Source of the DNA: Okamejei kenojei
Taxonomy: Eukaryota
Direction of reading: 5' to 3'
NCBI GenBank assembly: GCA_035221665.1
Contig: CM069135.1
Location: 17,422,001 to 17,486,000, forward strand
Length of the DNA: 64,000 bases
In this document: positions 13,876 through 55,439 of the stretch, piece by piece
Position numbering within the stretch: position 1 is the stretch's first letter
Layout: every line of letters starts with the position of its first letter
The notes under the pieces: generated by a model
Told to the model about the DNA's origin: nothing
The model's input: the letters and a program-made list of their open reading frames with translations, nothing else
Database searches by the model: none
Made by a program: the position numbers and the translations under genes

Positions 13876-13967
13876 TTTGGGAATCTCTTCACTCAAATCC
13901 TCTTCCTGCTCATGTTTTCTGGCTGGAAATTTCTTCCAGCACCTTAATATCTGTATTTATTGCTGCA

Positions 13968-14059
13968 ACGTGTAGGAAAATGTTGGAGTAACTCAGCCGG
14001 ACAGGCAGCATCTCTGGAGAGAAGGAATGGGTGACGTTTCGGGTCGAGACCCTTTGTTC
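13968..14059 (-). mobile_element. Penelope-derived short insertion (hammerhead core truncated)
   Basis: gggtgacgtttcgggtcgagaccct, flanked by ttgctgca direct repeats (13960-13967, 14060-14067). Confidence 0.8.
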
Positions 14060-14543
14060 TTGCTGCATTCTCTTTCCAGTGCATCCCCATTGCATTTTTG
14101 GTGAGCCATATTTTTAAAGATGAGGAAAGGGACTGTTTGCAGACTCCAGGCTAGATCCTCACAAATCTCTGTGACGATATATATATATAGAGAGCAAAGG
14201 TCTGGAGTATGGCAACAGAAAGTGCCAGCTGTGCACTATGATTTGTGTGTAAGGTTTGCAGAAGGAAAGCCGTGATCAGCCGAGGAGGTGGGGTAAGATC
14301 AATAATGTTAGTGCAGTATTTAATTACAGAATATGTGGAAGCGTAGATCCAGTGGAGAGGATCATGAGAAACAGTCATCAGCCTCTGTTGGCTTGTTGCT
14401 TTTCATGTATCTGTTCTCCAAATGACACAATTAAGAACAATATGAGTGTTGGTGACAAAGCAAGAATGTGGCCGTCTAAAATTCTGGAGGGTAACATTAG
14501 TGATCTGGAGAAGACACCATTTCAAGAAGTGTGGGGACAGGGG

Positions 14544-15425
14544 TAGGGGTAGCTCAGTGACACAACTGGTAGAACTCTGTCTCAATAGGCAATAGATAAT
14601 AGACAATAGGTGCAGGAGTAGGTCATTTGGCCCTTCGAGCCAGCACTGCCATTCAATGTAATCATGGCTGATCATCCACAATCAGTATCCCGTTCCTGCC
14701 TTCTCCCGATATCTCCTGATCCCGCTATCTTTAAGAGCCCTATCAAACTCTCTCTTGAAAGTATGCAGGGAACCGGCCTCCACCGCCCTCTGAGGCAGAA
14801 AACTCCACAGACTTACAACTCTCTGTGTGAAAAAGTGTTTCCTCATCTCTGTTCTAAATGCCTTACCCCTTATTCTTAAACTGTGGCGCCTGGTTCTGGA
14901 CTCCCCCAACATCGGGAACATGTTTCCTGCCTCCAGCATGTCCAAACCCTTAATAATCTTATATGTTTCAATAAGATCCACTTTCATCCTTCTAAATTCC
15001 AGAGTATACAAACTCAGCCCCTCTATTCTCTTAGCATACGACAGACCCGCCATCCCGGGAATTAACCTTGTGAACCTAAGCTGCACTCCCTCAATAGCAA
15101 GAATGTCCATCCTCAAATTAGGGGACCAAAACTGCACACAGTACACCAGATGTCTCACAACATCAGAAACCCCGGTTCGATCCTGACCTCAGGCACTGCC
15201 TGTGTGGAGTTTGCATGTTCTCCCTGTGACTGCATGGGTTTCTTCTAAGTACTCAGGTTTCCTCCCATATCCCAAAGGTGTGCATGCTTGTAGGTTCATT
15301 AGCCTCTAACTTGCCCCGTGTGTAGGGAATGGATGCAAAAATAGGATAGAACTAGTGTGAATGGGTGATCAATCATCAGTATGGACTTGATGGGCCAAAG
15401 GGTGCGATTCCATGCTGTATGTTTC
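14544..15425 (+). mobile_element. V-SINE split by a CR1 insertion (head 14544-14582, body 15153-15425)
   Basis: The head gtgacacaactggtagaactctgtctca continues after the CR1 as tctcacaacatcagaaaccccggttcgatcc, then the V-domain and tail. Confidence 0.75.
14585..15152 (-). mobile_element. CR1/HER1-like LINE 3' fragment
   Basis: ORF 14682-15158: HLVYCVQFWSPNLR...EFRRMKVDLIETYKII...FFTQRVVSLW; tail (tctattg)n. Confidence 0.92.
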
Positions 15426-16169
15426 AGTCAAACATTGTACGGGTTATATGTGAAAGGTAAAAGTGAAATCACAGTCCCAACTGAGGTGGATCACAGAGCA
15501 GCAATGGTGGAGGAGGGTGGTGTCATCCACCCCCCTGAGATGGTCATAACAGATGTAATCTTTTTTAGTTTGTTACCAAGCATTGCCTTGATGATATTAA
15601 CTATATTGGTCTCAACCTCACTTTGAGCTTCATACTGTCAATAAATAATGTTCAAAATCAAGTGGCTTGAAAATGATTGTAAAAAACAAAACAGCATACA
15701 CATAATGAAAAACATCTTCAAATTACATTTGTGATCTTCAAATACGTTTTCTGTTCGGAACATTAAACCCCTCAATTATTCAATTGCTCATCCTACCTAT
15801 GAAATTAGGTAACTATTATTATCATAAAAAAATGTTTGTTTCCATTTCTTCCAGTTTTCATAGCATGACTAATGCCTACTGCTTGGATAGCATTAAACAC
15901 AACATGCTAATTGTTAGTTACTAGTTCATATGATAAAAAATGACAGAGGTTCTGCATGCAGCAGACTGTTCCTCGTGCAATGTTGTTTGAAAACATAATT
16001 TTTGTCCAATTTACTGCATTTCTTATTGAAAATCATTAAAGTTTGCATGTACTTACAGATATAAGATTTCACAGAAGAAAGGGATGATATTTAGGTCTTC
16101 ATTCCTGCGTCTATCTTGTGTACTCAACGAATCAACAAATCTAGTCACTCTTCTATAAGAAGTGTGAGT

Positions 16170-16600
16170 TAATGCTAGAAAGGGTGCAAAGAAGATTCAA
16201 CGGGATGTTAACTGGATTTGAGGGCTTGAGTTATCAGGATAAATTGGATAGACTAGGTCTATATTCCCTGGAGGGAAGGAGAATGATAGGGGATATTTTG
16301 GATTATAACATTATTAGAGGCTAGAGGCGTAGACAGGGTAGATCGCAAATGTCTGATTTCCATGGTAAGTGTGCCGAGACCTAGAGGACACGTTTAAACA
16401 GAGAGAGGAGATTTAAAGGGGATTTGAGGGGTAAATCTTTTTACGAAGCGTAGTTGATATCTGGAATGAACTGCCAGAAGATGTGGTGGAGGCAGGACAG
16501 TAACAGCATTTAAGAGGCATCTTCACCAGTTCTTGAATGAGCCGGACTTGAGAGATATGGGCTTAATGCTGGCAAGTGGAATTAATATGGATTGGAGTGA
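16170..16600 (+). mobile_element. Old CR1 LINE fragment
   Basis: ctagaaagggtgcaaagaagattc (LERVQRRF), ctagaggacac, tggaatgaactgcc. Confidence 0.75.
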
Positions 16601-16939
16601 TGTGTAGGAAGGAACTGCAGATGCAAATCCCCAATCTTTAAAAATATGTCTCCACCACTTTAAACCTTCAATGATCTAATCTCCACCACCATCCAGAGCA
16701 GAGAATTCCAAACGCTCATCGCCCTCTGCAAGAAGAATTTCCTCAGCACCTCAGTTTTAAGTGACAGCCTCCTTATTATGAAAACATGTCCCCTTATGTT
16801 GATACTTTCCCATTAGTGCAATCATCTCAATATCAACCGTGTCATGTCTCTTGAAGATCATCCCTTAATTTTTCTAATTTTGAAATAAAAACCCTTCAAC
16901 ACTAAAACAGTTTCAGGGTTCTGCAGACAACTGAAACTG

Positions 16940-17020
16940 AGTCTGAAGAAGGGTTCTGACCCAAAATGTCACCCATCTTTTTTCTTCAGATATGCTGCCT
17001 GATCCATTGAGTTACCCAGA
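16940..17020 (+). mobile_element. Penelope-derived short repeat with degenerate hammerhead motif
   Basis: gtctgaagaagggttctgacccaaaatgtcaccc...tgctgcctga...tgagttac. Confidence 0.7.
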
Positions 17021-18700
17021 AACAGATGTTGCTTGAGAATTACTGGGAGTGTGCTGGTATACAAAAAGAGAGCAATAGAAGCAGGAGCAGACATTTCAGT
17101 GCCTTGTGCTTGCTCCTCCATTTTAATAAGAGATGATCTTTTACTTTAATATCACTTTTCAGTACTAACCCTATAATTCCTTAATGCCCTTAAAGTCTGA
17201 AAATCCATTTATCAATTGTACTAAACACAATTCCAACATTTCCTTCCACTTTTGCTGATAAATATTGCCTTCATGTGTATGTTTTCCCAAATCCTTCAAA
17301 TATTTATTGAACTGAACATTTGAAAAAAGCTTTGCACCGTTTAGAAATGCATTTCTTTGGCTTTACTGTCGATCCTTTAGTTTATCCCTGTGACGCATAT
17401 GTTCCCAGATGCCTTTTCATGTTCCATTCATGGTAGGTATCCATCGTTGTCTGATGTTTTTACCAATCTTGTCAGTCTCAACACTTTGCACGTTGACTAT
17501 ATTAAATGACCTGCCAGCACACACCTGGTATGAGTAAAGCAGGCATCAAGTGCAAGTACCTATTGCTCCATCTCACTTAGTAGCAAGATTATGTTCTTAA
17601 AGGCTTGTGCCATCAGTCTACATTGTCACCCAGCGCGGATAGAAGTGGTTGCGGTTTTGTGTCATCTATTACTGATTGTGTCTGTCTTAGTGAGATGGAT
17701 GGAGGAGCACGGTTGAAGGAAACGACGTTTGATTTGTGCTGTACAATATTCAGAGTCAAAACATACAAGCTACAGAGCATACACTTGGACCTCACAATCA
17801 AATGACAAAGTGCCTGTCACTGCCAAAGTAGTCAAACCCCCTCCTGGACACAAATGTCATAATCCATCGCGAATGCTCCCTGAATGCCACTTGTTCAGGT
17901 CGCAATATGGATGTCTTGCGTCTGCCCTTTAAAGATGATGCAGGGTGACATTAAAAATAATGTGGAATTCGTGTGGCAGCGCCTGCCTCTCAATCAGATG
18001 ATTATAGACTTGTGTCATGCTCAAGTGCTCTGAGATTAATCACACAGCAGATGCTTTCCCTGATTGTGGACTCTTTTAGAGAACAAAGGTCAGGCCATTT
18101 AGAGCCGAGAAGAGGAGGGTTTTTTTTCATGCAGAGTTTAAGAAACATTTAAGACAGGTACATGGATCGGATAGGTTTTGAGAGATATTGGCTAAATGCA
18201 GGAAGATGAAATTAGTGTAGATGGGGCATTTTGGTTTGCATGGGGTAATTGGGCTGAATGGCCTATTTTCACGCTGTATGGCTCTATGACAATAAGGTTG
18301 CTGAACGTTTTGGAATTCTCTACTCAGGGAATGCTCTGGAGGTTTAGCCTCAAGCTGCAGATAACCAGAGTTCTGGATGTTCAGGAAATAAAGGGGGATA
18401 CTGTTGGTGAATGGCGATCGAGAAGAAGGTCAGCCTTTGATCCTGATGAATGGCTGGGAAGACTGGAAGAACTGTTAGTCTACACCTGCTGATAACCCCG
18501 ACCCCAGTCCCAGGCAAGTCCTGCACTGACAGAAGTATTGCTATCTGGATGAGATGTCTGCACCCTCAGATAAACATAGAAGACCCTTTGGCAATGTTTC
18601 TGAGAACAAGGGAGCACAAAATATTCCAATTGCTGGAAACCTGAAACACAAATGTAAAACCGCAGGTCAGTCGGTATCAGCGGAGGGAGCCATAGAGTTA

Positions 18701-19074
18701 AGCCCCTGTCTCTCTTAGGAGACCTAAACAGCAACCTCTAGTGACCTTGCCCGCCACCCAAGGTTTCCATGAGGTCACTGGAGGTTTTGGTCACTCTCCC
18801 TAATGGTCGAAAGTGGTTTCCGCATGATAGAGGCTTCATCTAGGTTGCTGCTATTTGTTCAATATGATTTAAACTGGCCTCGACTAAGAATAGGTTGCTG
18901 TTTTAAAAATCTTCATAGTCATAGAAAACCTTCTTCATAGTCGAGGAAGGTTTTCAACATAGGCGTGGGAGGTGGTAGGAGGTTGCAGGTCACCTCGACC
19001 TTGATTTTTTTTTTTGGGTGGCGGGCAAGGTCACCAGAGGTTGCTGTTTAGGTCTCCTAATTGTGGCAGGGGCT
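18701..19074. mobile_element. PIF/Harbinger-type MITE
   Basis: ~61-bp TIRs (18701-18761 and 19014-19074, agcccctg...caggggct) flanked by a TTA TSD (18698-18700, 19075-19077); no ORF. Confidence 0.85.
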
Positions 19075-19473
19075 TTAACGTTACATCTCAATGGAGATTT
19101 TGTCAGGATAGTGTCTGAACAAACAACTTGGGAAATGGAGGTTGGAGAGGCAGAATGAGTATTTGAACTTGCAAAAGGGAACTTTTGTAAAGGGCATAAA
19201 CCAGAAATAAAAATGCTGGAATTGCTGAGTCTCCGATGTTGCTGAATTTATTGCTGAATCCAAAGGTTGCATATTGCCGAGTCAGAGGATGTAGTGTACA
19301 ATGGCCTGAGAGGGGGAAAGATTAAAGGAGATGTGTGGGGCAAGAGAACATTGGGTGCCTGGAATGCAATGAGAGGGGTGGTGGTGGAGGCAGATACAGT
19401 ATAATAAGGGCATTTAAGAGGCTTGTAGATAGGCACCTGAATATGCAGGGAATGGAGGAATAAGGATCATGAA

Positions 19474-19926
19474 TAGGGCTGCCAATTTTCTCACTCCCAA
19501 ATAAGGGACAAAAGGTCAAAATATGGGCCAAATTCCCAATGGGAATTCATTGACCGGCTCGGCCATGGCTGGGTGAATGATGAGTTGGCCTGGGTGCTGG
19601 ACTGCACATAAAGTCCGGCTCCGCAACCAACTCATGAACCGATGATCGGCCATGAGAAGGAGGGGTGGTGGTGTTGGCAGTAAGTGAAGGTCCGAAGGTC
19701 GGACAGCTGGCCGGGCTGCCGACCGACGGGGCCACGGGCGAGGCGCTGCTGCTGCACTGCGTCGGGACGGGTGAGGTGGGGCTGGACGCGGCGCTCGGAA
19801 CCGACACTCCCCTCCACCCGAGTTGCAACAGTCAAATATGGGACAAGGGCGGTCCTGTATGGGACAAACCAATTTAACCCAAAATACTGGGATGTCCCAG
19901 CTAATATGGGACAGTTGGCAACCCTA
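19474..19926. mobile_element. Non-autonomous hAT element inserted in a CR1 3' end (~19300-20020)
   Basis: TIRs tagggctgccaa / ttggcaacccta; perfect 8-bp TSD atcatgaa (19466-19473, 19927-19934); repeated subterminal gggaca motifs. Confidence 0.9.
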
Positions 19927-20344
19927 ATCATGAATAGGCAGAGGAGATCAGCTTAATTTGGCATTGTTTCCAACATGAACGTTGTGGGCCGAATGGCTGT
20001 TCCTATGTTGTACGGTTCAATGTGCTTACATGAACGCCAAGGCTGATTTGGAGGCGGATTTCAATTAAAAACAGAATCAATACTCATGTGGTGCCAGCTA
20101 TACATTAACACATTTTCATGGCTGCTTGAAGGGGGAAGAAGCTCCAGGAAGGTGACAAAGAGAGGCCATCATTACTTGTTGGTCTTTTTGCAGCATTAAC
20201 TCTGCACAACGTCATCAGAGCTAAGGAGATGAATTAACTCTTATCCACGAGCAGCCACACCTGAACATGGCGGGTCGGATCAGGGGACAGATAAATACTG
20301 GAGTGCAGAATACCCACGCAATGATGATCTCACGACCACTTCAA

Positions 20345-20885
20345 TGCATTGCACTCCACAATGACCCTATACGCCAGTGCATCTCTCTCTACACTGACCC
20401 CAAAACCACCTGTAACTCACTCTCACGCTTGGTTTAAACCCCCAGTGCATATCTCTCCACACTGTCGCTAAACTCGGAGTGCATCTCCTTCCCAGGCTGA
20501 CCCTAAAACCACCTGCTATTCTCTCCACACTGAACCAATACCCTCAATGCATCTCTCTCCCACCCTGACATTAACCCCCTACAGCCCTCTCCCACACTGA
20601 CCCAAAAGTTAGATGTGGCCCTTGTGGCTAGAGGCATCAGGGGCTATGGAGAGAAGGCAGGTAAGGGATACTGAGTAGGATGATCATATTGAATGGTGAT
20701 GCAGGCTCGAAGGGCCGAATGGCCTACTCCTGCACCTATTTTCTATGTTTCTATGAAACCCACTTTGCAACTCTCTCACACTACCGTAACCCCCCTACAT
20801 CTCTATCCCACACTGACCCCAAACCCACAGTGCACTCCCCTCCCACACTAAACCTAAACCATGTCTGTGTCTCACTGTCCTGACC
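20345..20885. repeat. ~33-bp C-rich minisatellite interrupted by a CR1 tail (~20607-20756)
   Basis: Recurring cacactgaccctaaaccccagtgcatctctc-like unit on both sides of a CR1 3' end. Confidence 0.75.
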
Positions 20886-21564
20886 CCATGACTCATCAGT
20901 CAATTTATCTCGACAGACTGTAGGGAAAAAAAAAACTGGTGATTAGTGGAGAACAAGAGATATAACATCATGTAGATCAAGAAGGGTTCAAAAAACAATA
21001 ACATTATCAGCCATATAGACACATCCATGAGACCAAGCCTTAATGCTGCCTCTTTACTGGTTTTAGTTGCTGAATGTTTACTTGCGCCACTTGAACCATA
21101 TCAATCGTCTGATCAAAGGAGACAAGTAATGGTGGTGACTAAAGTAACATCAAAGTCCTGGCAATACTCAGGTAAGAGAGAGAGAGAGAGAGAGAGAATG
21201 TTTAGCTCGATAACTCTTAGGTCAGCAGTTAGGTGACTGTCATTTTTATCGGAGGGGAGTTCTGTAAGATTACTTTATTATCTCACTTAATGTCACTGAA
21301 CTCATTGCAAGTGTCTGAAAGAAAGAGTGCCAAAGAAATCGCAGTAATGTATATTATCACAGCACCTTTGACATCTTGAAATGCTTCACTTGAGTGTTAT
21401 CTGGGGGGGGGGGGGGGAAAGGAATGGAGTAACTTGAATTGATCATTAGAGGGAAGAATCACACTTGGCCAAAGTGGGATATTTAAAGGGATATTATACC
21501 AAAGGGGAGCAAAAATTGAGTTATTGGGAGAGATGCCAAAATTCTGTTTCCCTACTGCTTTTGA

Positions 21565-22497
21565 TATATGCTGCTTATGTAGATGACTTTGGACCTAAAT
21601 GTAGATGGGTTGGCTAGTACGTTTGTAGATGACACCAAGATTGCTGGGGTTATGGATTGTGATGAAGGCTGTCCAAGTCCATAACCTCTTGAAAGTGTCA
21701 ACACAAATAGATAGAATGATAAAGATGGCTTATGATATGTTTGCTTTCAAAGGTCGGGGCATTGAGTATAAGAGTCGGGAAGCTTTGCAGGACTTTGGTT
21801 GGGCCGGATTTGGGGTAATATGTGCTGTTCTGGTTGCCCCATTACAGGATATGGAGGTTTTGGAAAGGGTGCAGAGGAGGTGTACAAGAATGATGCATGA
21901 ATTAGGGGGGAAATAGCAACAGGGAGAGGTTGGAAAAACGTGTGTTGTGATATGATAGAATTAATGATACTCCCCGACTTGCACAACAGGCGACTTACAT
22001 AAGCTTGCACTTACATGAACAATGCTGCACTCGGTCCCGGGTGCAACCAGGGCACTTTGTAATGTCCACAACAACGATCACAGAAGTTTACATCAGTCAC
22101 AAGCTGGCAATGGCAATGTTTACTAGGGAGGTCGTGCACCACAGAAAGTGCCCATGGTGAGACAGACACAGGCTGGCAATGGCAGCTGTGCTTACCCAGA
22201 AGGATGGGCGCTGTTGAAAGTGTCCTGGATACAGCTGGCCGCCACTGATACAGTTAACATGCTCAGTCAGTTATTTTTGGGCAGGTGGTTCCAACATATG
22301 TAAAATCTGACTGATGTATGGGATAATGGAAGTTTAGTAATGGAAGATAATGGAAGATGTGCAGGCACGTTTTTTACACAGTGGGTGGTAAGTGCCTGAA
22401 ATGCCAGGTGTAGTGTTTGAGGCAAATACGATAGTGGCATTTATGAGACTTTGGGATAGGTATATAGATATGCAGCAAATGGAAGGATATAGATTAT
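21565..22497 (+). mobile_element. Decayed CR1 LINE with an unrelated insert (~21960-22340, possibly Tigger/pogo-like)
   Basis: FVDDTKI, GRGIEYKSRE, LERVQRR; the insert begins tactccccgactt...cgacttac; the CR1 resumes at ttttttacacagtgggtgg. Confidence 0.65.
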
Positions 22498-22498
22498 A

Positions 22499-24719: not shown

Positions 24720-25080
24720 CTCCCATTTTGTCTATCTTTCTTTCCTGGATGCGCACCAATTTCTCCCATTCCCTTCCTATATTCCTTCTTCTGCCTTCAC
24801 ATTTCACACCCCTTCTAACCTTATTTCCGAATATCACACTTTTTGTCTTTACATCCCTGACCTTTGTCCAACTATCTGCCAATAACCTCCCCACCCCCTG
24901 CCCCCCTGCCTCACACGTATACACCTATTGTTTGCCAGGCTTTGCCCTGGTCTCTTCTCCCTTACAGCTTTCTTCCCCCTGACTACAATCAGTATAAAGA
25001 TGGGTCCCTACCAAAAACATCGCCTATCCACGTTCTCCAGGGAAGCTACCAGGCCCTCTGAGTTACTCCAGTGTTTTTTT
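24720..25080 (+). mobile_element. Penelope-like 3' region (old) with degenerate hammerhead motif
   Basis: Pyrimidine-rich UTR, then cagtataaagatgggtccctaccaaaaacatcgcc...tgagttactccag. Confidence 0.6.
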
Positions 25081-25112
25081 TAGAATTTTGCACTCACATC
25101 TCCGAAACAGCA

Positions 25113-25566: not shown

Positions 25567-25694
25567 GTTTACGAAGGAACTGCAGATGCTTGAAAATCGA
25601 AGGTAGACAAAAATGCTGGAGAAAATCAGCGGGTGAGGCAGCATCTATGGAGCGAAGGAAATAGGTGACGTTTTGGGTCGAGACCCTTCTTCAG
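25567..25694 (-). mobile_element. Penelope-derived short insertion ending at the hammerhead CUGA
   Basis: gacgttttgggtcgagacccttcttcag; TSD agtaattcaatt (25555-25566, 25693-25704). Confidence 0.85.
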
Positions 25695-26997: not shown

Positions 26998-27172
26998 NNN
27001 NNNNNNNNNNNNNNNNNNNNNNNNNNNNNNNNNNNNNNNNNNNNNNNNNNNNNNNNNNNNNNNNNNNNNNNNNNNNNNNNNNNNNNNNNNNNNNNNNNNN
27101 NNNNNNNNNNNNNNNNNNNNNNNNNNNNNNNNNNNNNNNNNNNNNNNNNNNNNNNNNNNNNNNNNNNNNNNN
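26998..27172. other. Assembly gap (175 N)
   Basis: Run of N. Confidence 1.
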
Positions 27173-29814: not shown

Positions 29815-30770
29815 GTTTCCTTGATCATCGTTACTTTTATCTTTCATTGATTTTCAGATCTTTCAGAATACCAACATCTTTCAGAATACCACCGGGTGGC
29901 GCCACCAATGGCCACCTCGCCAACAGCCTGTCACATCTCTTCTCTGTTTTTATTATTTTAAGTATGTTTTAAACGTGTGTTTCAATGTTTCTTGGTCAGT
30001 TTATGTGAGGGGAGGTGGGGGGAATAGGGGGATTTTTTTTTTCAGACCACTCCCCCCCCCCCATGGCCTAACAACTGGATTGGTGCGGCCTTTCCTGGAG
30101 ACCGGCCTGGAGCTTCATGCCGCAGGCACGGCTCAGACTTTAACATCGTAAAGCTGCGATCCTTTGCGGAGGATCGCCAGCAGAAGTGCTCGGACCGTGG
30201 GGCCTGTGGACTTTTAACACCATGAAGCCGCGGTCTCCGGTAAGAAGCGGCTGGCTCGGGAACTCCATGTTCCGATCCGTCCCAATGTCGGAGTTTCGAT
30301 CAACCCGACGAAAGGGCCTGAACATCAGACCGTTTGTAGCAGCGAACTGCAGACGGGTTCAAAGGCCCCGACCGCGGGTGAACAAAGGAAGAAGATGACT
30401 GAACTTTATTGCCCTCCATCACAGTGAGGAATGTTGATTCCACTGTGATGGATGTTTATGTTACATTTTATTTTCTGTGTGTATTGTGTTCTTTTCACTT
30501 AGTATGGCTGTATGGTAACTCAAATTTTACTGCATCTTAATTGGTTAAGTGACAATAAATGCAAACAAACTAATTTTTTCTATATCTTTCTATAATCATC
30601 ATCTATATCTCTTGTCGTCCTTTCCCCTGATTCACAGTCTGAAGAAGGCGTTCAACCCGAAACATCACCTATTCCTTTTCTCCAGAGATGCTGCCTGAGG
30701 CGCTGAGTTACTCCAAGTTTTTGTGTCTATCTCCGGTTTAAACCAACATCTGCAGTTCCTTCCTACACAT
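29815..30770 (+). mobile_element. Penelope-like 3' region split by a ~680-bp insertion; hammerhead motif at 30639-30666
   Basis: 29815-29855 and 30575-30770 are collinear with the reverse complement of 59708-59900. Confidence 0.7.
29892..30570 (+). mobile_element. Non-coding retroposon with a Rex1-like 3' end (unclassified)
   Basis: Starts ggtggcgccaccaatggcc, has a GC-rich middle with hairpins, and ends gtgacaataaatgcaaac like the Rex1 3' end at 63837. A related head lies at ~51505-51617. Confidence 0.5.
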
Positions 30771-36099: not shown

Positions 36100-36556
36100 A
36101 GTTTTAGTTTTGGAGCTACAGCGTGGAAACAGGTCCTTTGGTCGACTGAGACCATGCCGAGCAGCGGTCACCCGTTACACTAGTTCTATCCGACACACCA
36201 GGGACAATTTACAGAAGCCAATTAACCTACCAAACTGTGCAGGGAGGAACTGCAGTTGCTGGTTTAAACCAAAGATAGACACAAAATGCTGGAGTAACTC
36301 AGCGAGACAGGCAGCATCCATGGAGAGAAGGAATGGGTGACGTTTCTGGTCTAAACCCTTCTTCAGACCTACCAAATTGTATGTCTTTGGGATATGAGAG
36401 GAAACCTGGAGCACCCAGAGGAAACCCGTGCGTTCACAGGGTGAACATACAAATGCCATACAGACAGCACCCGTGGTCAGGATCAAACCTGGATCTCTGG
36501 CTCTGTAAGGCAGCTGAGGCACTGTGGCTGCGTAAGGCAGCTGCGCCACTGTGCCA
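36100..36556 (-). mobile_element. V-SINE containing a Penelope-derived insertion
   Basis: SINE tail at 36100, B-box region ggatcaaacctgg, head at ~36556. Confidence 0.85.
36239..36366 (-). mobile_element. Penelope-derived short insertion ending exactly at the hammerhead CUGA
   Basis: gacgtttctggtctaaacccttcttcag; TSD acctaccaaa(c/t)tgt (36225-36238, 36367-36380). Confidence 0.88.
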
Positions 36557-40760: not shown

Positions 40761-41034
40761 AAATGTGCAGGAAGGAACTGCAGACGCTGGTTTAATCTAA
40801 AGATAGACACAAAAAACTGGTGTAACTCAGCAGGACAGGCAGCATCTCAGGAGAAAAGGAATGGGTGAGGTTTCGGGTCGAGACCCTTCTTCAAACTAGT
40901 CTGAAGAAGGGTCTCGACCTGAAATATCACCCATTCCTTCTCTCCAGAGATGCTGCCTGTCCTGCTGAGTTCCTTTAGCTTTTTGTGCCTATCTTTGGTT
41001 TAAACCATCTTCTGCAGTTCCTTCCTACATATTT
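40761..41034. repeat. 274-bp palindrome of two head-to-head Penelope-derived units
   Basis: Arms 40761-40897 and 40898-41034 are reverse complements with scattered mismatches. The centre act|agt lies between two hammerhead motifs. Confidence 0.9.
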
Positions 41035-41773: not shown

Positions 41774-43349
41774 CAGTGCATTCAGAATGTATTCGGACCC
41801 CTTCACTTTTTCCACATTGTTACGTTAATCAATCTACACACAATACCCAATCTACACACAATACCCAAAATAAAAAGGCAAACGCAGGTGTTTATAAGTT
41901 TTTGCAAAGTAATTAAAAAGAAATAACTGAAATATCATATTTACATAAGTATTCAGACCCTTTACTCACTACTTTGTTGAGGCATCTTTGGCAACGATTA
42001 CAGACTCGAGTCTTCTTAGTATGACGCTACAAGCTTGGCACCTGTATTTGGGTAATTTCTCCCATTCTTCTTTGCAGATCCTCTCAAGCTCAGGTTGGAT
42101 GGGGAACGTCGATGCACAGCTATTTTCAGGTCCCTCCAGAGATGTTCGATCGGGTTCAAGTCCGGGCTCTGGCTGGGCCACTCAAGGACATCACAGACTT
42201 GTCACAAAGCCACTCCTGCGTTGTCTTGGCTGTGTGCTTAGGGTCGTTGTCCTGTTCAAAGGTGAACCTCCGCCCTAGTCTGAGGTCCAGAATGCTCTGG
42301 AGCAGGATTTCATCAAGGATCTCTCTGTGCTCCATTCATCTTTACCTCAATCCTGACTCGTCTCCCAGTTTCTGCTGCAGAAAAACATCCCCACAGCATG
42401 ATGCTGCCACCATCATGCTTCACCGTAGGTATGGTATTGGCCAGGTGATGAGCAATGCCTGGTTTCCTTCCGACGTGACACTTGGCATTCAGGCCAAAGA
42501 GTTCAATCTTGGTTTCATCAGATTAGAGAAGCTTTTTGCTCATGGTCTGAGAGTCCTTTAGGTGCCTTTTGGCAAAAGCCAAGCAGCTGTCATGTGCCTT
42601 TTACCGAGGAGTGGCTTTTGACTGGCCACTCTACCATAAAAGCCTGATTGGTGGAGTGCTGCTGATATAGTTGTCCTTCTGGAAGTTTCTCCCATCTCCA
42701 CAGAGGATCTCTGGAGTTCTGTCACCTCCCTGTCCAAGGCCCTTCCCCCCTGATTGCTCAGTTTGGTCGGGTGGCCAGCTCTATGAAGAGTCCTGATGGT
42801 TCCAAATATCTTCCATTTAAGAATGACGGAGGCCGCTGTGCTCTTTGGGATGTGCAATGTTGCAGAAATTGTTTTATAACCTTTCCCAGATCTGTGTCTC
42901 AACACAATCCTGTCTTGGAGGTCTACAGACAATTCCTTCATCTGCATGGCTTGGTTTTTGGTCTGACATGCTCTGCCAACTGTGGGACCTTATATAGACA
43001 GGTATGTGCCTTTCCAAATCATGTCAAATCAATTTAATTTACCACTGGTGGACTCCAATTAAGTTGTAGAAACATCTCAAGGATAATCAATGGAAACAGG
43101 ATGAACCTAGGCTCAATTTTGAGTTTCATAGCAAAGGGTCTGAATACTTATGTAAATGTGATATTTCAGTTGTTTCTTTTTAATTACTTTGGAAAAATTT
43201 CTAAACACCTGTTTTCGCTTCTTCATTCTGGAGTATTGTAATAAAATTGATGATAAAAAAAAAATGAATTGAATCAATTTTAAAATAAGGCTGAAATGTA
43301 ACAAAATGTGGAAAAGGTGAATGGGTCTGAATAATTTCTGAATACACTG
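41774..43349 (-). mobile_element. Tc1/mariner transposon, IR/DR type, defective
   Basis: TA|CAGTG...CACTG|CA ends; ~200-bp TIRs with an internal repeated gtattcagaccc (41789, 41949; inverted at 43136, 43323). Confidence 0.93.
41969..42947 (-). pseudogene. Tc1 transposase (frameshifted, internally deleted)
   Basis: MKELSVDLQDRIVLRHRSGKGYKTIS...AGHPTKLS (paired-like HTH with a GRP-like motif); C-terminal [15 protein letters not shown]...RRLESVIVAK. Confidence 0.9.
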
Positions 43350-45224: not shown

Positions 45225-45600
45225 ACGGACATAACTCAACGGGTCTGGCTGCATCTGTGGAGGGAATGGATAGGCAACATTTCTGGTTGAGAGTCTTCTC
45301 CAGACTGATTGTGGTGGTGGGGGCGGGTGTGGGGGGGGGGGGGGAGGGGGAGCGAAGTGGGGGTGGGGGGCGGGAGGGAGATGAAAGTTGTAAAATAAGT
45401 GAGCGTATTGGGGGAAGGACAAAGCCTGTCAAGTACTAGATGGATACAGCTGAGGAGGGTTTGATTCGCAGATGGGGTGACAAACGCTAGAGATGAAAAG
45501 GAGACAACACGGGGTCAGCTGGAAAGGAATGGGGAGGTGGGGGGATGTGAAAGGAAGGCGGAATAGTGTGAGAAAGGAGCTGAAATCTGGATCGGCATAA
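45225..45600 (-). mobile_element. Penelope-like 3' region (old)
   Basis: taactcaacgggtctggctgcatct...gagtcttctccagactgattgtgg, then a purine-rich UTR similar to 24720-25080. Confidence 0.6.
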
Positions 45601-47378: not shown

Positions 47379-49135
47379 TTCTTCCCTACACAGAGAGACA
47401 AATGATGGAGAGTAATAAAAACTGTCTGGACTGTTTAATAAAACCCCTCTAGACTGTGCAACCTCTCCTGTGGAGATATGACACTTATGTATCACTATAT
47501 AAACATTTTCTACTCCATCCTAAACCATGTAATCTGGTGGGAGAGGCAGAGGATCAGTTGAACTCTTCAGGTTAATTGTCAAATCGTCTTTCTGCACAAA
47601 GTTGTGGATGAAAGTTGTTTTACACAGATATATTATCAGTCCAAATTCATCTTTTAGTTTGCATAGTTTTGAAGGAAATCAGATTTTGATGTTCGGATAG
47701 TCGGTATCAACATCAGTGATATTCTTTAGTAATGTTCCAAACTTTACTAAAATTGATTCAATATAGAAAGTAGTTTTAAAAATTGTACTGGGAGATTTAA
47801 TTATCATTGTTTTGCATGTTAAAGAGGCATTAGAATTGATTTCCATTTTTCTCAAAGACATTATTCAGGTCGGCTCCCACAAATTAAATATAATTAGCAT
47901 GACAGATATATTTAACCACTCAGCAATCTTGTGGAATGAAAAGAAAAAACCTAAATATGTTTTACGTGGCAGAATATCTGGAAATTAGTGTGTTTAGTGT
48001 GAGCGGCAAGGCAGGTAGGTTAAAGTGAAGGGCAAGGCAGATGGGCATAACCGAGCTGGGATAACAAGAGAAATTAAGGCTCTGGTCAAGAAAATGAAGG
48101 AGGCGTGGGGCAGGTAGAAGCAACTGAAATCAAGTGTATCCCTGGAGGAATAACGAAAACTGAGGAGCATGTTAATAAAGGAAATCAGGAGGGCAAAAAG
48201 GAGGCATGAGATAGCTCTGGCAGATAATATTATACACAATCCCAAGAGATTTTATTTATACATTAAGAGAAAAAGCGTAGCCCTCCAGGAATTAAAGCGT
48301 TCATTTCTGTATGGAGCCGCAGAAGATGGGCAAGATCCCCAATGAGTATTCTCTGAAGAAAGACAGGAGGACTGAAGAACTTGGGACAGTCAATGGAAGT
48401 ATCAAGAGAGCGATCAGTATTATGGTCAAGGAGGTGCTGAAGATCCTAACACGTATGAAGGTAGACTAATCACTCGAGCCAGATCAGATATATTTGAGGA
48501 CTCCGTGGGAAGCAAGAGAGGAAATCGCAGGTGCCCTTGCTGAGATTTATGAGTTGTCATTAAATGCAGGTGAGGTGCCGGAAGACTGGTGGGTGGCAAA
48601 TATAGTGTCTCTATTTAAGAAGGACTACAGGGAAAAGCCTGGGAACTACAGGCCAGTGAGTCTAACATCTGTGGTTGGGGAGTTACTAGAGGTATAAGAT
48701 ATACATGCATTCAGATTGACTGGGACGATTAGGGATAATCAGCATGGTTTTGTACATGGGTGGTCAATGAACCTGATTGAGTTTTTTCAAAATTTTGAGG
48801 AGGGCAGAGCTGTAGACGTTGTATATAGAGATGTCAGCAAAGCCTTTGGCAAGGTTCCGCTTGGTAGGCTGCTCGAGAAGGTTAGATCGCATGGGAACCA
48901 AGGAGAGATGACTGGATAGAAAATTGGCTTTGTGACAGGAAGCAGAGGGTGAAGGTGGTAGGTATTTTTTATTGGACTGGAGGCCTGTGACTAATGGTGT
49001 GCCTCAGGGTTCATGCTGGGGCATTGCTGTTTCTTATCTATATCAAGGATTTAGATGAGAAAGTACAATATAAGATTGGAGATGAGACTAAAGTGGACAG
49101 TGAAGATGGTTGTCAAACATTGTAGCAGGATCAGG

Positions 49136-49438
49136 GAGGCACCATGGTCCAGTGGTAGATAGCATTGCTGCCTTACATCGCCAGAGACTCAGGTTCGATC
49201 CTGTTTATGGGTGCTGTCTGTACGGAGTCTATACGATCTCCACATGACCTGCGTGGGTTTTCTCCGAGATTTTCGGTTTCCTCCCACAAATGTACAGGTT
49301 TGTAGGTTAATTGGTCTGGTATAAATGTAAATTGTCCCTAGTGTGTGTAGGATAGTGTTAATGTGCGGGGATCGCTGGTCAGTGCAGACTCGGTGGGCCG
49401 AAAGGCCTGTTTCTGCACTGTATCTCTAAACTAAACTA
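49136..49438 (+). mobile_element. Full-length V-SINE
   Basis: Head, B-box ggttcgatcc, V-domain and (ctaaa)n tail. Confidence 0.9.
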
Positions 49439-49444
49439 ATCTTG

Positions 49445-49573
49445 TGTAGGAAGGAGCTGCAGTTGCTGGTTTAAACTGAAGATCAACACAAAATGCTGGA
49501 GTAACTAAGCGGGACATGGGTGACGTCTCTGTAGAGAAGGAATGGGTGACGTTTCGGGTCTAGACCCTTCTTC
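49445..49573 (-). mobile_element. Penelope-derived short insertion ending at the hammerhead core
   Basis: gacgtttcgggtctagacccttcttc; TSD aaactaatcttg (49433-49444, 49574-49585). Confidence 0.88.
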
Positions 49574-52161
49574 AAACTAATCTTGATGGATTAGGCAGAT
49601 GGGCTCATGAATGGTTAATGGAATTTAAGACAGAGAGGTACGGGGTGTATTAGGTTGTCCAACCAGGGCAAGACCTACACAATGTATGGCAGGGCTCTGG
49701 GGTGTCTTGGAGTGCAGATACATTGCTCCTTGAAAGTGGAGTCGCAAGTTGAGAGGGTGGTCAAAAAGGGTTTTTGGTACATTAGCCTTCGTCAGAGTGT
49801 TGTGTATAGAAGTTGGGCGGTCATGTTACAGTTGTACAAGACATTGGTGAATCTGCATTTGGAGTGTTGTGTTCAGTTGTTCTAGGAATTATGTTGTTAA
49901 GCTGGAAAGGGTGCAGAGAAGATTTGCAAGGATGTGACCGGGACTCAAGGGCTTAAGGGAGGTTGAGCAGGCTTGGACTTTATTCCTTGGAGTGCAGAAG
50001 ATTGAGGAGTGATCATGTAGAGGTGTATGAGATCATGAGAGGAATAGAGAGGGTAAATGCACACAGTCTTTCACCCAGAATAGGGGAATCAAGAACCAGA
50101 GGACATACAGTGGTTTAAGGTGAGGGGGGAAGATTTAATAACAACCTGAGGGGCAACTTTTTATACAGAAAGGACGATACGTACACGGAATGAGCAACTG
50201 GAGGAGGTAATTGTGGCAGGTACTTTCACAATATTAAAAAAAACATTTGGACAGGTATGTGGATAAGATAGGTTTGGAACAATATGGGCACAGGCAGATG
50301 GGACTAATGTAGACAACGTGGGCAATTTGGGCCGAAGGGCTTGTTTCGACTGTATGACTCTCCATGACTCTCTGAAAGCAAGTTATTATTAATTGCTCTG
50401 AAAATTGTTCGTTATTAAAAAGAGAATTTGCGAAATGCTGACTAAAAGAGAAGAAATTAGGCCTTTTTTTATCAGTTAAGACCTTGTTGATGGTGATCAT
50501 CCATCTCATTCCAATTTGCATTGTCCTGTCTGTCACCTCTGCCGCTTTCCTCTTTATCTTGCAGCTCATTTAGAATGGCTTTAACCTTACTCTTTGAAAC
50601 GTATGCATTTTCTCCTTGTTTCCCTTGCAAAGATCCATTGCGAACAAGCTTCTCTTTCATTTATCCTTTGAGTTCGGCCTAAATCATCAGCTGGGGCAAA
50701 TCCAGTTGAGACTCGCAATGAAGCACGAGCCAGTATCCTTTCAAAAGATTGTTTAAAACTGAGCAAATAAGTACAAATGCCACAAAAAAAAGTTATAAAT
50801 CATACAGTGCTATAAAAAAATTACTGAAGATAGGGGTATTAAAGTACGACAAACTCTCCTTTGCTGATATGATCTCTGTGCTGTATCTTTCATTGCTTTA
50901 AGCCACAATGTTAATTTATGTTATATTCTCCTGCACCTCCTTTTAACTCTGAACATGTCCACAGTTCCCTTGCAACTTCTCAAAGTTTGTCCTGAACTCA
51001 TCAAACCATTATACCCATGACAGTTTGATTGATGCAGATATCCCTTTGTAACAACTGCATCCTGTTTTCCTGCCACAGGACCATGAACTGACTGTTAAAA
51101 GGAACGTTTGTTGTGCTAATGTTTGTACATCAAAGATGTTTTGATGGGGAAAAAAGTTTGAGCTTATCAGCATTATCAGCAGGTAGGTTGATGAATGAGT
51201 CTTACTTCAGTGATAATTTTGACATTTACCACATCCAAAGCCTTTTGGTGGTGGAAGCAGGTACACCAGATCTTGCTACTTGACATGATGCTACTGGCGA
51301 CATTTCCACATCGCAGAAGTCCAGAAGAGAAACTTACAGTTCTGTAAGTAAATACTTCAGGATTTCCTTTTGGCTTACAGGCGATTTGAAAACATTAGTA
51401 TTTATCCCATAGAATAAAACATTTTCATTCAGATTTCGGTTCACATGGTTCACATTCAGATTCCGTTCTCATTAAGTACTTGCTGAAGGTACACAGTTGC
51501 ATCACACTGCAGCCTCACCAGCAGTGTGTCTGTCATTTCGACTTTTTTGTTTATTTAGTATGTCTCAATGTATGTGTTAGTGTTTCTCAGTATGTTTTAT
51601 ATGGGGGGTGGGGGGCATTAATAGTAAGATTAAACGCAAACTTACCAGTTTGAAGTTTGATCTTTATTTTATGAGGAGTTGCGATGAGGGATTTCGTGAA
51701 GACCCCGCCAGGCACGCATGCGCGGCATTCTTCAAAGCAGCGGTGTGGAATCACAGAACTACCCAGAAATGAACTAATATAGTATGATTGAAGAGACTCT
51801 AATTACCAGCTGATCTTATAGTTGAGGGTTGGGAGCGGAGGGCACGAAATCCCTCATCGCAACTCCTCATAAAATAAAGATCAAACCTCAAACTGGTAAG
51901 CTCGTTTAATCTTACTATTTCATTTCGGAGTCACGTGAGTGAAGATTTCAAAGCTCTGTGATTACATGCCCTGGATCACGTCCATGCCCACACACTGCCG
52001 TAATACTGATGGAGGAAGTATGTTAACGTATTTCAGACTTGAACAAGCTGAAAAATAATAACATTATTGTTAATACAACAATAAACCCCTGAACTCGGGG
52101 ACAAATGCTTAGGGAACAGCACTTAAAACTGACTCCGCAACGTTGCAGGAGCGACCACAGG

Positions 52162-52940
52162 TTAGTTAAGAAACCGCTGAAATGTGGTTTCACTGGCCCA
52201 GCCCGCTATTGCGAGGACATGATCCATGAACACCTCCATGGTCCTCGCCGCTGATGTGGATGCAGCCCTGGTAGAATGACATTTTAAAATGTTTAGTGTC
52301 TTACCTGCTGCACCGAATACCACCTTGAGCCATCTGGAGATAGTCTGCACCGTCACCCTGTGACGTGGGCTTCCATAGCTGATAACAGATCTGCCTCCAT
52401 ATTCCTGATGGCCATTTTCAGACCTGTAGTCGCAGGTCTGTGTAGTTTAAGCAACTCTTTTATAAACAAGTTACTTTATTATGGGTCGATCATTCTATCC
52501 AGGTTTAATTCCTGTAGAGTCTGGACCCGTTGTGCTGTGTTCAGTGCCATTACCATCACTACTTAAAAGGTGAGTAAGTCCAGTGGTAAATCCGTCATAC
52601 GCGACCAGCTCCTGAGTAGGGTCATCACCACCCTTATATCTCAGGTAATATAATATTGTGGTCGGTGAGGGATGGATAGAACATATCCCTCATAGTTTGG
52701 ATACCAGCTGGTGAGATCCCACTCCAATGCTGAGATAGGATGACAGTGCACTCCTGGCACTGTAACTGAGGGACTCATCATAATGAAGACCCATGAGGAT
52801 GCCAGCACATTGGAGATTGTAGCAGATATGTAGGTGGTCTTGGTCCGACTACAGAAACCTCCATATCCTTATGTAGGTGAGGTACTGCTTCCTAGTGGAC
52901 TCTCTCTGCACGATGCTGTAAGACGTCCATAGTCCTTTAT
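52162..52940 (-). pseudogene. DIRS tyrosine recombinase remnant
   Basis: TISRWLK...CHSTRAASTSAA...LAIAGWASETTFQRF (HxxR and AGW motifs); upstream MVMALNTAQRVQTLQEL (RxxxL box) and STRKQY (N-terminal domain). Confidence 0.85.
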
Positions 52941-53177
52941 GTTGCAGAAATCTGGTTGCATTTCCTGCAACACCTGACTGATGAAGCAGAATGGGGAAAG
53001 CATAGAAATCGATTTCCCCCAATGTAGCGAGAACCTGTCCATCGTCACTGCCCCAGGATCTGGTTCTCAAGAGACACATATTGGTATCTAATGGTTCAAC
53101 CTGGACGCAAGGAGGTCGATATCTGGTGTTCCATATTAGGCTATAATTTTAGCAAATATTTGGAGGTTCAACATCCA

Positions 53178-53845
53178 CTAGGTGTCGTTATTAAATACTT
53201 GTGACCTGGTGTCCGCCACTGTATTGAGCTGAACCAAAAGGTACATAGCTGATATCCAAATATTTCTTTCAATGCACCAGAGCCAAATTAATTTCCCCAA
53301 TTCATCACAAGATATTGACTTGATACCACCCATAAGGTTTAAATATGCCACCTCAGTGGTATTATTTTGAAGATGGACATACGTATGCTGCAGATTAGTG
53401 CATTGAGCCCGCAGCCCGTGACATGCTCCCAGCATTTCTGAACAGTCCCAGCCTTGGTGCTTGCGTCGGTCTGTAACACGACTAATGGGTTTTATGTAAT
53501 GATGGGATTTAACAATCACAAACATTGCTAATCCACCATTGTAGCTCAATTTATGCCTTGATTGGCGGCTGCATAGGTTCGTAAACAATGTCCAGCATTC
53601 GCTATTAATGCTGAGATTTTGCTCTTTGCAAGCTTTGATAGTATAACGGCCCAATTATGTAGCTAGAATGTAGCTACAAGTTTACCAATTACCTTAGCAG
53701 CATATCTAATGGTCGGTTTCCTGGCGCAAGCAAGGCTGTTACATGCCTCTATAATGTCTATTGCTTTGTTCCCTGGGATAGTGACAATCAGACCCATGTA
53801 TCCCAGAATGTATGTAACCTCTCTCCTACTTGTGAGGTTATACAT
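53178..53845 (-). pseudogene. DIRS RT C-terminus / RNase H remnant
   Basis: KPTIRYAAKVIGKLVATF; HVHLQNNTTEVAYLNLMGG...IWLWCIERNIWISAMYL...NTVAD. Confidence 0.85.
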
Positions 53846-55274
53846 GCAGCACTTCCTAGAGAACCAGACCCCCTACCTCCATGGCTACCGGCGGGCCTGT
53901 CGTTCTGGTTCCTGGTGTTCCGTTGAATTGTGTTGAGGTGCTGCTGACGTGTAGGTCCTTACTGGTCTTTCAGGTGGCCCGAGGTCTTCCATATGATGTT
54001 TGCCTGCGCACTTCCGCCCTGCTGGAGGGAGGTGGGTTATCAACCCGACTGCCTCCATCTCCTAATCCAGGTCCTTGACCTGTATGGGCAGGTCCTCACC
54101 GAACAGCTGTCTCAGTGGTGGCGTCGCAGATGCCTTGTACAACCCCGCAAATATAGGGTTTAGGAGTCGGTTTAATGGCGATATTCCGGGAAGCGTTAAC
54201 TTCATGACTAATATCGCAAGAGCATCCTCCTGCTCTGCCGTCATTCCCGTACCGTCAACCGACCTGGCAAAGGCAGTAATCACCGACATCAGCAATTTCA
54301 GGATCTTTTGTAACTTCAGCTCCTGTGCCCTTATCCCGGGACTGTTGTTGCCCCAGATGGGCGTGTTGACTGTCGTACATTCAACGATATGCAGTTATTT
54401 GGGCTTTGTATCTGTTGATCGCCTTGGTAAGGACCTGTTCCTGCAGCTGGTGTGTGGTGAGATAGCCTATGCTAGCCCCTAATTTGGGCTGCAAAAGGCT
54501 GACCTGAGTGCTTCGGCTGGGCGAACTCGGAGACCACATTCAGCAGTTCCTCCTGGGTTTTCTCAGGTACTGCAGGTTCCTGCTCCACCCTTCTTACGTG
54601 TCAGCCAGCTGCTGATCCGTGGCATTCCCCACCAATGACGGGGACATGCTGGGTGACCCAGCCACATGTCTCCAGGACTGGAGGACATCTGGTCCAGCTG
54701 CAGAGATTGTGCTCTAGGATACGCTCCACCCTCTCCCCCCTCCCCCAGCTCCAATGGTGACCAGACTCTCATGCGGGACATAGACTGCCGCTAACGGCAA
54801 GGCTCCCGCCTGTGTGTGAGTCGGGGCCCCGGCTCTGTCTACTACCTCTATAGGGTAGCATAGCCGTTAGTCCGCGGTATACCTGTGGCCTGCGGCGTTG
54901 AGTCGGAGCTCCTGCTCTGCCTTTGCTGCCCGTGAATGGCAGTCTCCGAGCCCGGACCCTCCTGGTCCACGGGCTTGCCCGACTTCCGGGAGGTGTTGCC
55001 GTCAGCCCGTGGTGACCCTGCGGGCAGCGGTGTAGATTCGGGCTGCCGCTCTGCCGTCACTGCCTGCGAACGGCGAGTGTGAGCCCGGACCCTACGGGGT
55101 CAACGAGCTGCCCAACCTGCCTGGTGTAGAAATAAAGTCGGGGCAATGGCGTAAGTAAAATGAAAGAAGGACAGCAGGTTAGTTTTTTCTTACCTGCAGG
55201 TCCTTACAGTAGAGGAGCAACGCTCCTCAATGCCTGTCGCTCGCATGCGGTCGACGATATGTCGTGCATGCGTG

Positions 55275-55378
55275 GGTACACAAAAAGCTGGAGAAACTCA
55301 GCGGGTGCAGCAGCATCTAAGGAGCGAAGGAGATAGGCGACGTTTCGGGTCGAGACCCTTCTTCAGACGGGGCAATGG
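55275..55378 (-). mobile_element. Young Penelope-derived short insertion at the DIRS 5' end
   Basis: 92 bp (55277-55368) identical to 59708-59799; TSD gtcgtgcatgcgtg (55261-55274, 55379-55392). Confidence 0.9.
55339..55366 (-). ncRNA. Minimal hammerhead ribozyme motif (intact core)
   Basis: Minus strand: CUGAAGA A GGGU-CUCG-ACCC GAAA CG UC. Confidence 0.65.
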
Positions 55379-55439
55379 GTCGTGCATGCGTGCCTGGCGG
55401 GGTCTTCACCAAGTCACTCACGTGACTCCGAAATGAAAT

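What the first reader, a model, noticed from the sequence alone, without database searches (positions are those of the whole stretch)
13960..55392. Recurrent ~90-130 bp TSD-flanked insertions that all end at a hammerhead ribozyme core
Seen: five separate insertions of the same Penelope-derived sequence, each with its own 8-14 bp TSD: 13968-14059, 25567-25694, 36239-36366, 49445-49573 and 55275-55378. In all five, homology to the longer Penelope copy (59705-60220) stops at or within a few nt of the CUGAAGA box. It stops exactly at C3 in the 25694 and 36366 copies, 2 nt short at 49573, 2 nt beyond at 55368, and just after stem II in the 14 kb copy. Random 5' truncation would not cluster like this. 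Established: Penelope-like elements carry minimal hammerheads in their pseudo-LTRs. Inference: this is a discrete ribozyme-bounded mobile unit (solo pLTR, SINE-like or retrozyme-like) mobilised by the Penelope RT/GIY-YIG protein. The boundary is NOT the predicted self-cleavage site (after GUC, ~28 nt further in). It may instead mark the transcript 5' end, copied by internally primed reverse transcription, or a strong RT stop at the ribozyme fold.
Basis: partly seen in the sequence, partly recalled or inferred. Interest (0 to 1): 0.72.

Follow-up and report, generated by a model that had tools for sequence, protein, structure and literature searches.

The report
Penelope run-off stubs marking RNA start
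These tiny insertions are short end-pieces of a known kind of jumping gene (a Penelope-like retrotransposon), and most copies across the genome begin within a few bases of one spot just ahead of its ribozyme motif, likely because copying starts inside the element's RNA and runs off the RNA's first base.

Summary
Observation confirmed and general. The five TSD-flanked inserts are short copies of the pseudo-LTR end of a Penelope-like element (RT + GIY-YIG, probably Neptune clade); about 417 hits per Mb, roughly 1.1 million extrapolated. With hammerhead C3 = 0, 3' ends fall at two sites (+89-93, +126-131), matching the known two-start 'tail'. 5' ends pile up at -7..+5 (mode -2/-3): 19 of 30 position-picked young copies, a rate about 30 times that upstream, and 289 of 360 randomly sampled copies. 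The same boundary starts 7 of 23 ORF-bearing copies. It is not the cleavage site (+28). The stubs are not a family of their own: all five sequence types also have long members. Best reading: internally primed cDNA runs off a physical RNA 5' end, probably a transcription start at an initiator-like YCAGTCT. Stop rate ignores stem II strength, and the last bases are sometimes re-copied. No RNA-end data could be obtained. The class, tail, inverted copies and solo hammerheads are published; I found the fixed boundary in none of the papers read. This scan noted it before, here and in other genomes.

The parts
13968..14059 (-). short copy, 8-bp TSD, ends about +2..+6 from C3, long (+131) 3' end with ~39-nt internal deletion
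25567..25694 (-). short copy, 12-bp TSD, 5' end 0..+2, long 3' end
36239..36366 (-). short copy, 14-bp TSD (1 mismatch), 5' end -2..0, long 3' end; sits inside another repeat
49445..49573 (-). short copy, 12-bp TSD, 5' end +2 with microhomology to -3, long 3' end
55275..55378 (-). short copy of the young subfamily, 14-bp TSD, 5' end -2 plus 10 extra bases, short (+89) 3' end
59705..60220 (-). 5'-truncated young copy: GIY-YIG C-terminal 61 aa, 3' UTR, hammerhead, short 3' end; 8-bp TSD 59697-704/60226-33; inserted in a LINE
59768..59802 (-). minimal type I hammerhead motif in the long copy (C3 at 59797, predicted cleavage after 59770) with the initiator-like YCAGTCT at -5..+1
   Evidence: sequence read against PMC4209133; no Rfam hit
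40765..41030 (.). head-to-head pair, both arms end exactly at -3 in a blunt join
2088..2179 (+). older short copy, 5' end about -3..-6, short 3' end
16940..17017 (+). older short copy, 5' end -3
30570..30768 (+). copy that runs about 70 nt upstream of C3 (counter-example)
24950..25081 (+). old copy that continues into the pyrimidine-rich 3' UTR (counter-example; upstream edge approximate)
45230..45346 (-). old copy that continues about 43 nt upstream (counter-example)

Best explanation
The inserts are short copies of a Penelope-like element's ribozyme-bearing end, likely made when the element's enzyme primes at one of two internal sites near the start of its own RNA and runs off the RNA's 5' end, which is probably a transcription start about 3 nt ahead of the hammerhead core. 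Shown: parent element, two 3' end classes, TSDs, a sharp 5' pile-up shared by short and ORF-bearing copies, no pile-up at the cleavage site. Inferred: the pile-up is a physical RNA end; that end is a Pol II start at the A of YCAGTCT; ragged ends (-7..+5) come from joining to the target. A usual transcript has a junction with sequence beyond +131 only at its 5' end, so priming there would give mostly dead-end stubs; long copies would need tandem read-through RNA or a jump to the RNA's 3' repeat. The ribozyme motif is a passenger in the stubs.
For: Parent: tandem units of about 3.96 kb with RT and GIY-YIG matches. 3' ends at +89-93 and +126-131, like the two RT starts and 30-40-nt tail of anole Poseidon, where priming needed RNA well beyond the start site and ribozyme cleavage was dispensable (PMC11167929, parts 1-2). 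5' ends: 19 of 30 position-picked young copies at -7..+4, 0.089 per base at risk against 0.0026 upstream and 0.005 at +5..+25; 289 of 360 random copies stop there (177 solo, 112 with inverted partner); 7 of 23 ORF-bearing copies that reach +10 stop at -5..+6. Templated bases in solo copies fall from 0.87 at -1 to 0.54 at -3, 0.32 at -4 and about 0 from -7. CAGTCT is the commonest context in all six groups while bases further upstream differ, though -3/-4 are unpaired in stem I; it fits the initiator consensus YYANWYY (recalled). Re-copies of the terminal bases sit just upstream in 11 of 184 solo copies against 15 of 920 control windows, p=0.002, as expected at a template end. Stop rate is the same for strong and weak stem II, 78 of 109 and 12 of 17. 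D. virilis Penelope has an internal TATA-less promoter in the pLTR (PMC2377424, passages and Discussion).
Against: No RNA-end data: only assembled contigs were available and they cannot show starts. No clear cap-derived G: 15 of 40 non-C bases at -4 against about 27% expected. The modal end is -2, not -3 (8 against 4 of 38), and -2 is also the edge of stem I. 16 of 23 ORF-bearing copies run on past the boundary, and the stop rate differs between first and second passage (19 of 27 against 7 of 23, p=0.01), which needs extra sources of longer RNA or a jump. In D. virilis the start lies about 120 nt upstream of the ribozyme, so the layout is not conserved. The downstream-promoter match is poor. 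About 4 of the 11 re-copy cases look like chance. The priming requirement comes from a different clade.
Confidence: 0.55

Rival explanations
1. The RNA end is physical but made by processing: 5'-3' exonuclease decay of a longer read-through transcript stalls at the foot of the (protein-bound) ribozyme fold.
For: Modal end -2 is the first paired base of stem I (pairs -1:+28 in 93% and -2:+29 in 90% of 70 copies); ragged ends; no cap-G; the anole ribozyme folds with protein help. Explains re-copying as well as a start site does.
Against: Stem I is only 2 bp plus a possible 2 more; the region folds no better than shuffles (z 0.1-0.5 for the young copies); does not explain conservation of unpaired C-4, A-3; no dependence on stem II.
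Confidence: 0.15
2. The RNA continues upstream and RT pauses or is released at the ribozyme (RNA fold, or a terminator-like cDNA hairpin followed by a pyrimidine run).
For: About 30% of young copies and 70% of ORF-bearing copies pass the site seamlessly; ends lie 3-15 nt past stem II.
Against: By -2 both strands of stem II and the 3' strand of stem I are already copied; only 3 of 30 ends at +5..+25, all inverted arms; cDNA hairpin is about -2 kcal/mol and no better than shuffles; the stem II variant that loses two cDNA pairs stops equally often (n=17 only).
Confidence: 0.15
3. Ends are set by annealing or snap-back at the short palindrome (T)CAG-T-CTG(A) centred on -1 during resolution of two cDNAs.
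For: Ends are roughly symmetric around -1; second arms of head-to-head pairs cluster in palindromic stem II, +8..+19; palindromes at inverted junctions are published (PMC3846280 passages).
Against: Solo copies outnumber inverted ones (177 to 112), and 16 of 23 young solo stubs have a TSD within 20 nt of the end, so no partner was involved.
Confidence: 0.08
4. A discrete non-autonomous SINE-like or retrozyme-like family that spreads from short master copies.
For: Very high copy number; one type is 81 short to 14 long; stubs would keep the downstream part of an internal promoter, so some secondary spread cannot be excluded.
Against: All five types have long members; nearest-neighbour test; no shared 5' flank among 184 solo copies other than misclassed long copies and passengers in host repeats; recurrent junctions proved local or carried by another repeat; ends are not at the cleavage site.
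Confidence: 0.05
5. The boundary is a 3' splice site (pyrimidine tract then CAG at -4..-2), as the D. virilis intron ends at helix I.
For: Sequence fits an acceptor; precedent in PMC4209133.
Against: No common leader upstream of solo ends; many ends keep bases -3..-7; splicing leaves no free 5' end; no GT..AG joint to this site among the 15 of 93 joints shown (weak).
Confidence: 0.03

Closest known systems
Endonuclease-positive Penelope-like elements, Neptune/Nematis type (PMC8557442, PMC3846280; passages read)
   Same: RT plus C-terminal GIY-YIG, cysteine motif in the linker, partial tandems, inverted 5' copy, optional 30-40-nt tail, TSDs, solo pLTRs.
   Different: These passages describe 5' truncation as variable; here about 70-80% of copies that reach the ribozyme stop in a 12-nt window.
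Poseidon of Anolis carolinensis, in vitro (PMC11167929; main text read)
   Same: Hammerhead at the pLTR-ORF junction, two internal RT starts about 100-130 nt downstream, both strands extended, cleavage not needed.
   Different: Other clade; there the ORF starts in stem II, here the first in-frame ATG is at +163; the paper's main text reports no fixed 5' end of genomic copies.
Minimal type I hammerheads of metazoan PLEs (PMC4209133; results and discussion read)
   Same: Core boxes, extra base before stem II, palindromic minimal helix III, thousands of dispersed solo motifs and opposite-strand pairs, taken as truncated PLEs.
   Different: Insertion boundaries relative to C3 are not given; stem I here is 2 bp.
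Non-LTR retrozymes (bioRxiv 10.64898/2026.07.22.740005; parts 1-2 of 5 read)
   Same: Derived from PLE pLTRs, carry type I hammerheads, monomers dispersed.
   Different: Defined by tandem units each with a full ribozyme; these stubs are solo or head-to-head and not bounded by cleavage sites.
Minus-strand strong-stop DNA of LTR retroelements (recalled)
   Same: Short cDNA from an internal priming site to the RNA 5' end, within a terminally repeated region.
   Different: Target-primed and integrated as such; a strand transfer is not shown here.
L1Tc 5' 77-nt HDV ribozyme (PMC6765202 passages)
   Same: Ribozyme at the very 5' end of a retrotransposon.
   Different: There cleavage makes the 5' end; here the end lies upstream of the core, 28-31 nt before the cut site.

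Membership tests
EN+ Penelope-like element | RT and GIY-YIG in one ORF, EN C-terminal | tested here: met
   RVT_1 E 5.5e-6 and GIY-YIG E 2.6e-4, both just under Pfam's curated cut-offs, in frameshifted pieces of L171; DKG motif seen
EN+ Penelope-like element | partial tandems (pLTR) and inverted 5' copies | tested here: met
   L171, L172; 90 head-to-head pairs in the random set
EN+ Penelope-like element | optional 30-40-nt tail | tested here: met
   3' ends at +89-93 and +126-131
Neptune clade | Zn-finger-like motif between RT and EN | tested here: met
   cysteine cluster before the GIY-YIG match; shared with Nematis per PMC8557442
Neptune clade | placement in RT phylogeny | not tested
   no reference set fetched; clade name rests on the linker and on recall
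Minimal type I hammerhead | CUGANGA, GAAA, NUH, stem II, palindromic helix III | tested here: met
   present in young copies; all three boxes intact in 82 of 297 random copies; no Rfam match
Minimal type I hammerhead | stem I of 4-5 bp | tested here: not met
   2 bp, then two unpaired positions, then two pairs in 74% and 61% of 70 copies
Minimal type I hammerhead | self-cleavage as a dimer | not testable with these tools
   needs an assay
Non-LTR retrozyme | head-to-tail tandem units each with a complete ribozyme | tested here: not met
   solo or head-to-head; the only short tandem arrays seen lack the CUGA box
Non-LTR retrozyme | copy ends at the cleavage site | tested here: not met
   2 of 44 young-like random copies end at +28/+29, one of them doubtful; no peak in aligned ends; 2 of 68 TSD-defined ends at +27/+28
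Non-LTR retrozyme | circular RNA | not testable with these tools
   no raw reads
SINE / non-autonomous family | own lineage from short masters | tested here: not met
SINE / non-autonomous family | Pol III (tRNA, 7SL, 5S) head | tested here: not met
   whole stub is contiguous element sequence; no Rfam match over the copies

The most novel reading that the evidence does not exclude
These stubs are integrated 'strong-stop' cDNAs of an obligatory two-step cycle: transcription starts inside stem I so the 5' ribozyme is crippled, the 3' ribozyme cuts at +27, RT primes near the 5' end, runs off at -3 (sometimes re-copying the last bases, telomerase-like) and jumps through the 30-nt overlap to the RNA's 3' end. 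That would be a retrovirus-like first strand transfer in a target-primed element, explaining how pseudo-LTRs are regenerated and what the hammerhead is for.
Probability: 0.2. Interest if true: 0.85.

Novelty: new variant of a known kind. Interest (0 to 1): 0.5.

Why it matters
How Penelope-like elements, the sister group of telomerase, rebuild their pseudo-LTRs is open (PMC2377424: 'no obvious mechanism'), and the role of their hammerhead is unknown. About a million stubs give a base-level record of where copying starts and stops. They yield a precise, cheap prediction (an RNA 5' end at -3/-2) and a template design for the existing in vitro system. As an element it is ordinary: no new mobile family and probably no active ribozyme in the stubs.

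Tried and rejected
Rfam scan: no hammerhead match. RNA runs: 24 listed, all contigs, none raw; four laid, RNA status only guessed and one probably DNA, so no start or splice information; depth steps (core far above 3' UTR far above ORF start) only echo copy number in related organisms; a second laying gave no result, so RNA ends remain untested. Cap-G test inconclusive. Exact 12-nt telomerase-like repeat: 1 of 127 solo and 2 of 76 inverted, the latter two one local event; only the looser re-copy signal stands. Self-spreading fold-back subfamily: one junction had 81 exact hits, but 20 fetched loci share long flanks, so it rides in a host repeat. Deleted 14-kb form as a subfamily: 2 hits. Recombination test for strand transfer: first pass suggested low linkage across C3 but downstream markers were badly coded; a clean marker pair is linked across C3 (4/0 against 2/7, p=0.02), so frequent jumps between different RNAs are not supported and jumps within one RNA are untested. 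DNA search with the young core returned nothing because the words are too common. No PDB match for the RT piece. Folding z-scores unremarkable. No full tree was built; a nearest-neighbour test was used. Literature: seven searches showed no paper on a fixed 5' boundary; Lunse et al. 2016 is not held and was not read; Arkhipova 2006 not read; no supplements opened, and Fig. S2 of PMC11167929 (coverage of genomic copies) may already show such a boundary.
Full report
Coordinates. Positions marked + or - are relative to hammerhead C3 (first base of the CUGAAGA box) = 0, in the sense of the element. Predicted cleavage follows +27.

Observation. The five inserts and their TSDs are in the sequence as described. 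All lie on the minus strand. TSDs are 8, 12, 14 (one mismatch), 12 and 14 bp; in three the TSD shares 2-5 bases with the element, so the exact junction is ambiguous. The copies belong to at least three sequence types. A profile built from six natural copies finds 15 hits in the window: 9 stop at the ribozyme box (two of them as a blunt head-to-head pair at 40765-41030), 4 run on upstream, 2 are inner fragments.

Parent. The window is G000:C5:17422001-17486000 of a 2.76-Gb genome; a cartilaginous fish, probably a skate, by recall and earlier notes, not tested. Relatives of the 59705-60220 copy share its 3' end and extend to many different lengths into an ORF. L171 and L172 hold tandem units of about 3.96 kb with inverted pieces; their frameshifted ORF pieces match RVT_1 and GIY-YIG just below Pfam's cut-offs and carry a DKG motif and a cysteine linker. 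The ribozyme is sense to the ORF and lies at the pLTR-ORF junction; the first in-frame ATG is at +163.

Abundance. 536 hits in 116 evenly spaced 10-kb loci plus the window, 0 in reversed sequence; 594 hits in 1.424 Mb with 20 more loci, 417 per Mb, about 1.1 million if extrapolated. One 43-nt motif of the young subfamily has 33,438 exact matches, control 0.

3' ends. Two classes, +89-93 and +126-131. This is the published tail, which in anole Poseidon corresponds to two internal RT starts.

5' ends. By TSD alone, 68 of 291 solo copies have one (control 127 of 5805); 31 of the 68 end at -10..+9, three of these being tandem-array artefacts. By homology, of 360 random copies reaching +12 or beyond, 177 stop as solo, 112 stop beside an inverted partner and 71 continue; a further 160 of the 536 have aligned ends inside +13..+95, with no peak at +28, and 16 lacked flank or length. 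Against an exact natural reference, 30 young copies picked only by position gave 19 ends at -7..+4, 3 at +12..+18 (all inverted arms) and 8 at -31..-748; this pick could not see ends at +28, the random set of 44 could and gave 2. Rates per base at risk are 0.089, 0.005 and 0.0026. Among 30 copies chosen for the ORF 5' region, 7 end at +60 or later, 7 at -5..+6, 7 at -50..-188 and 9 continue as tandems (two rows are one locus). So the boundary belongs to the element, not to a separate short family.

Not a separate family. All five types have short and long members, and 98 of 201 short copies have a long copy as nearest neighbour against 25% expected. Seven pairs among 184 solo copies share junction flank; they are misclassed long or inverted copies or passengers in duplicated host repeats.

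What sets the boundary. Cleavage is excluded. An RT block by the RNA fold should act at the 3' foot of the helices (+20..+30), where ends are rare, and nothing of the fold is left once RT reaches -2 (inference). A cDNA hairpin is weak and the stop rate does not change with stem II type. Templated bases drop most between -2 and -4. The window's own pair joins -3 to -3. Terminal bases are re-copied in 11 of 184 solo copies against 15 of 920 controls. These points favour a physical RNA end. The A at -3 lies in YCAGTCT, conserved across types although -3/-4 are unpaired, and fits the initiator consensus (recalled); Penelope of D. virilis has an internal TATA-less promoter, though about 120 nt upstream of its ribozyme. 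Against: mode at -2, no clear cap-G, and 16 of 23 ORF-bearing copies pass the site. Exonuclease trimming to the fold remains a fair rival. No RNA ends could be measured.

Model. Shown: parent, two 3' classes, TSDs, shared 5' pile-up. Inferred: if priming needs RNA beyond the start site, as in vitro for the anole element, an ordinary transcript can be primed only near its 5' end; the cDNA runs off after 90-135 nt and is joined to the target (solo stub) or to a second cDNA (head-to-head pair). Long copies come from tandem read-through RNA or a jump to the 3' repeat; a marker pair linked across C3 speaks against frequent jumps between different RNAs and says nothing on jumps within one.

Comparison and novelty. 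PLE layout, tail, inverted copies, solo pLTRs and dispersed minimal hammerheads are published. The stubs fail the retrozyme and SINE tests. Seven searches showed no account of a fixed 5' boundary at the core; one key paper was not held and supplements were not opened. This scan has noted the pattern many times, in this genome and others; those notes are unchecked and were not used as evidence. Verdict: real, a new variant of a known kind, of value as a testable clue to the PLE cycle. Interest 0.5.

Noticed in passing
random loci; window 40765-41030: Head-to-head pairs mostly have one long (+118-131) and one short (+80-104) arm, 50 of 61; the window's pair is an exception with two long arms.
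   Followed up: yes
L065:1649-1869, L073:8738-8804, L103:927-994, L289:9203: Tandem arrays of a 66-nt unit (+20..+86) that starts at the GAAA box and lacks the CUGA box.
   Followed up: no
L291-L310; 81 exact sites in G000: An old fold-back copy with a fixed junction, often with part of stem II deleted, carried inside a larger unidentified repeat with shared flanks.
   Followed up: partly
L250/L251 and L253 (G000:C1:834631, 890057): Same re-copied junction at two sites 55 kb apart with different flanks, nowhere else in the genome.
   Followed up: partly
L150, L155, L158, L160, L161, L164, L168: 7 of 30 ORF-bearing copies end between +60 and just past +131, near the RT start sites; may reflect collision with a complex bound there.
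   Followed up: no
young copies: Short 3' ends often carry extra C bases; two long ends (L267, L270) carry an A run.
   Followed up: no
window 59436-61027: LINE-like RT region interrupted by the 59705-60220 copy.
   Followed up: partly
window 42025-43037: Decayed frames that resemble a Tc1-type transposase (recalled likeness).
   Followed up: no
window 26998-27172: Run of 175 N.
   Followed up: no
L171 minus strand, +160: Splice-donor-like sequence just before the first in-frame ATG, and an upstream out-of-frame ATG at +50.
   Followed up: no
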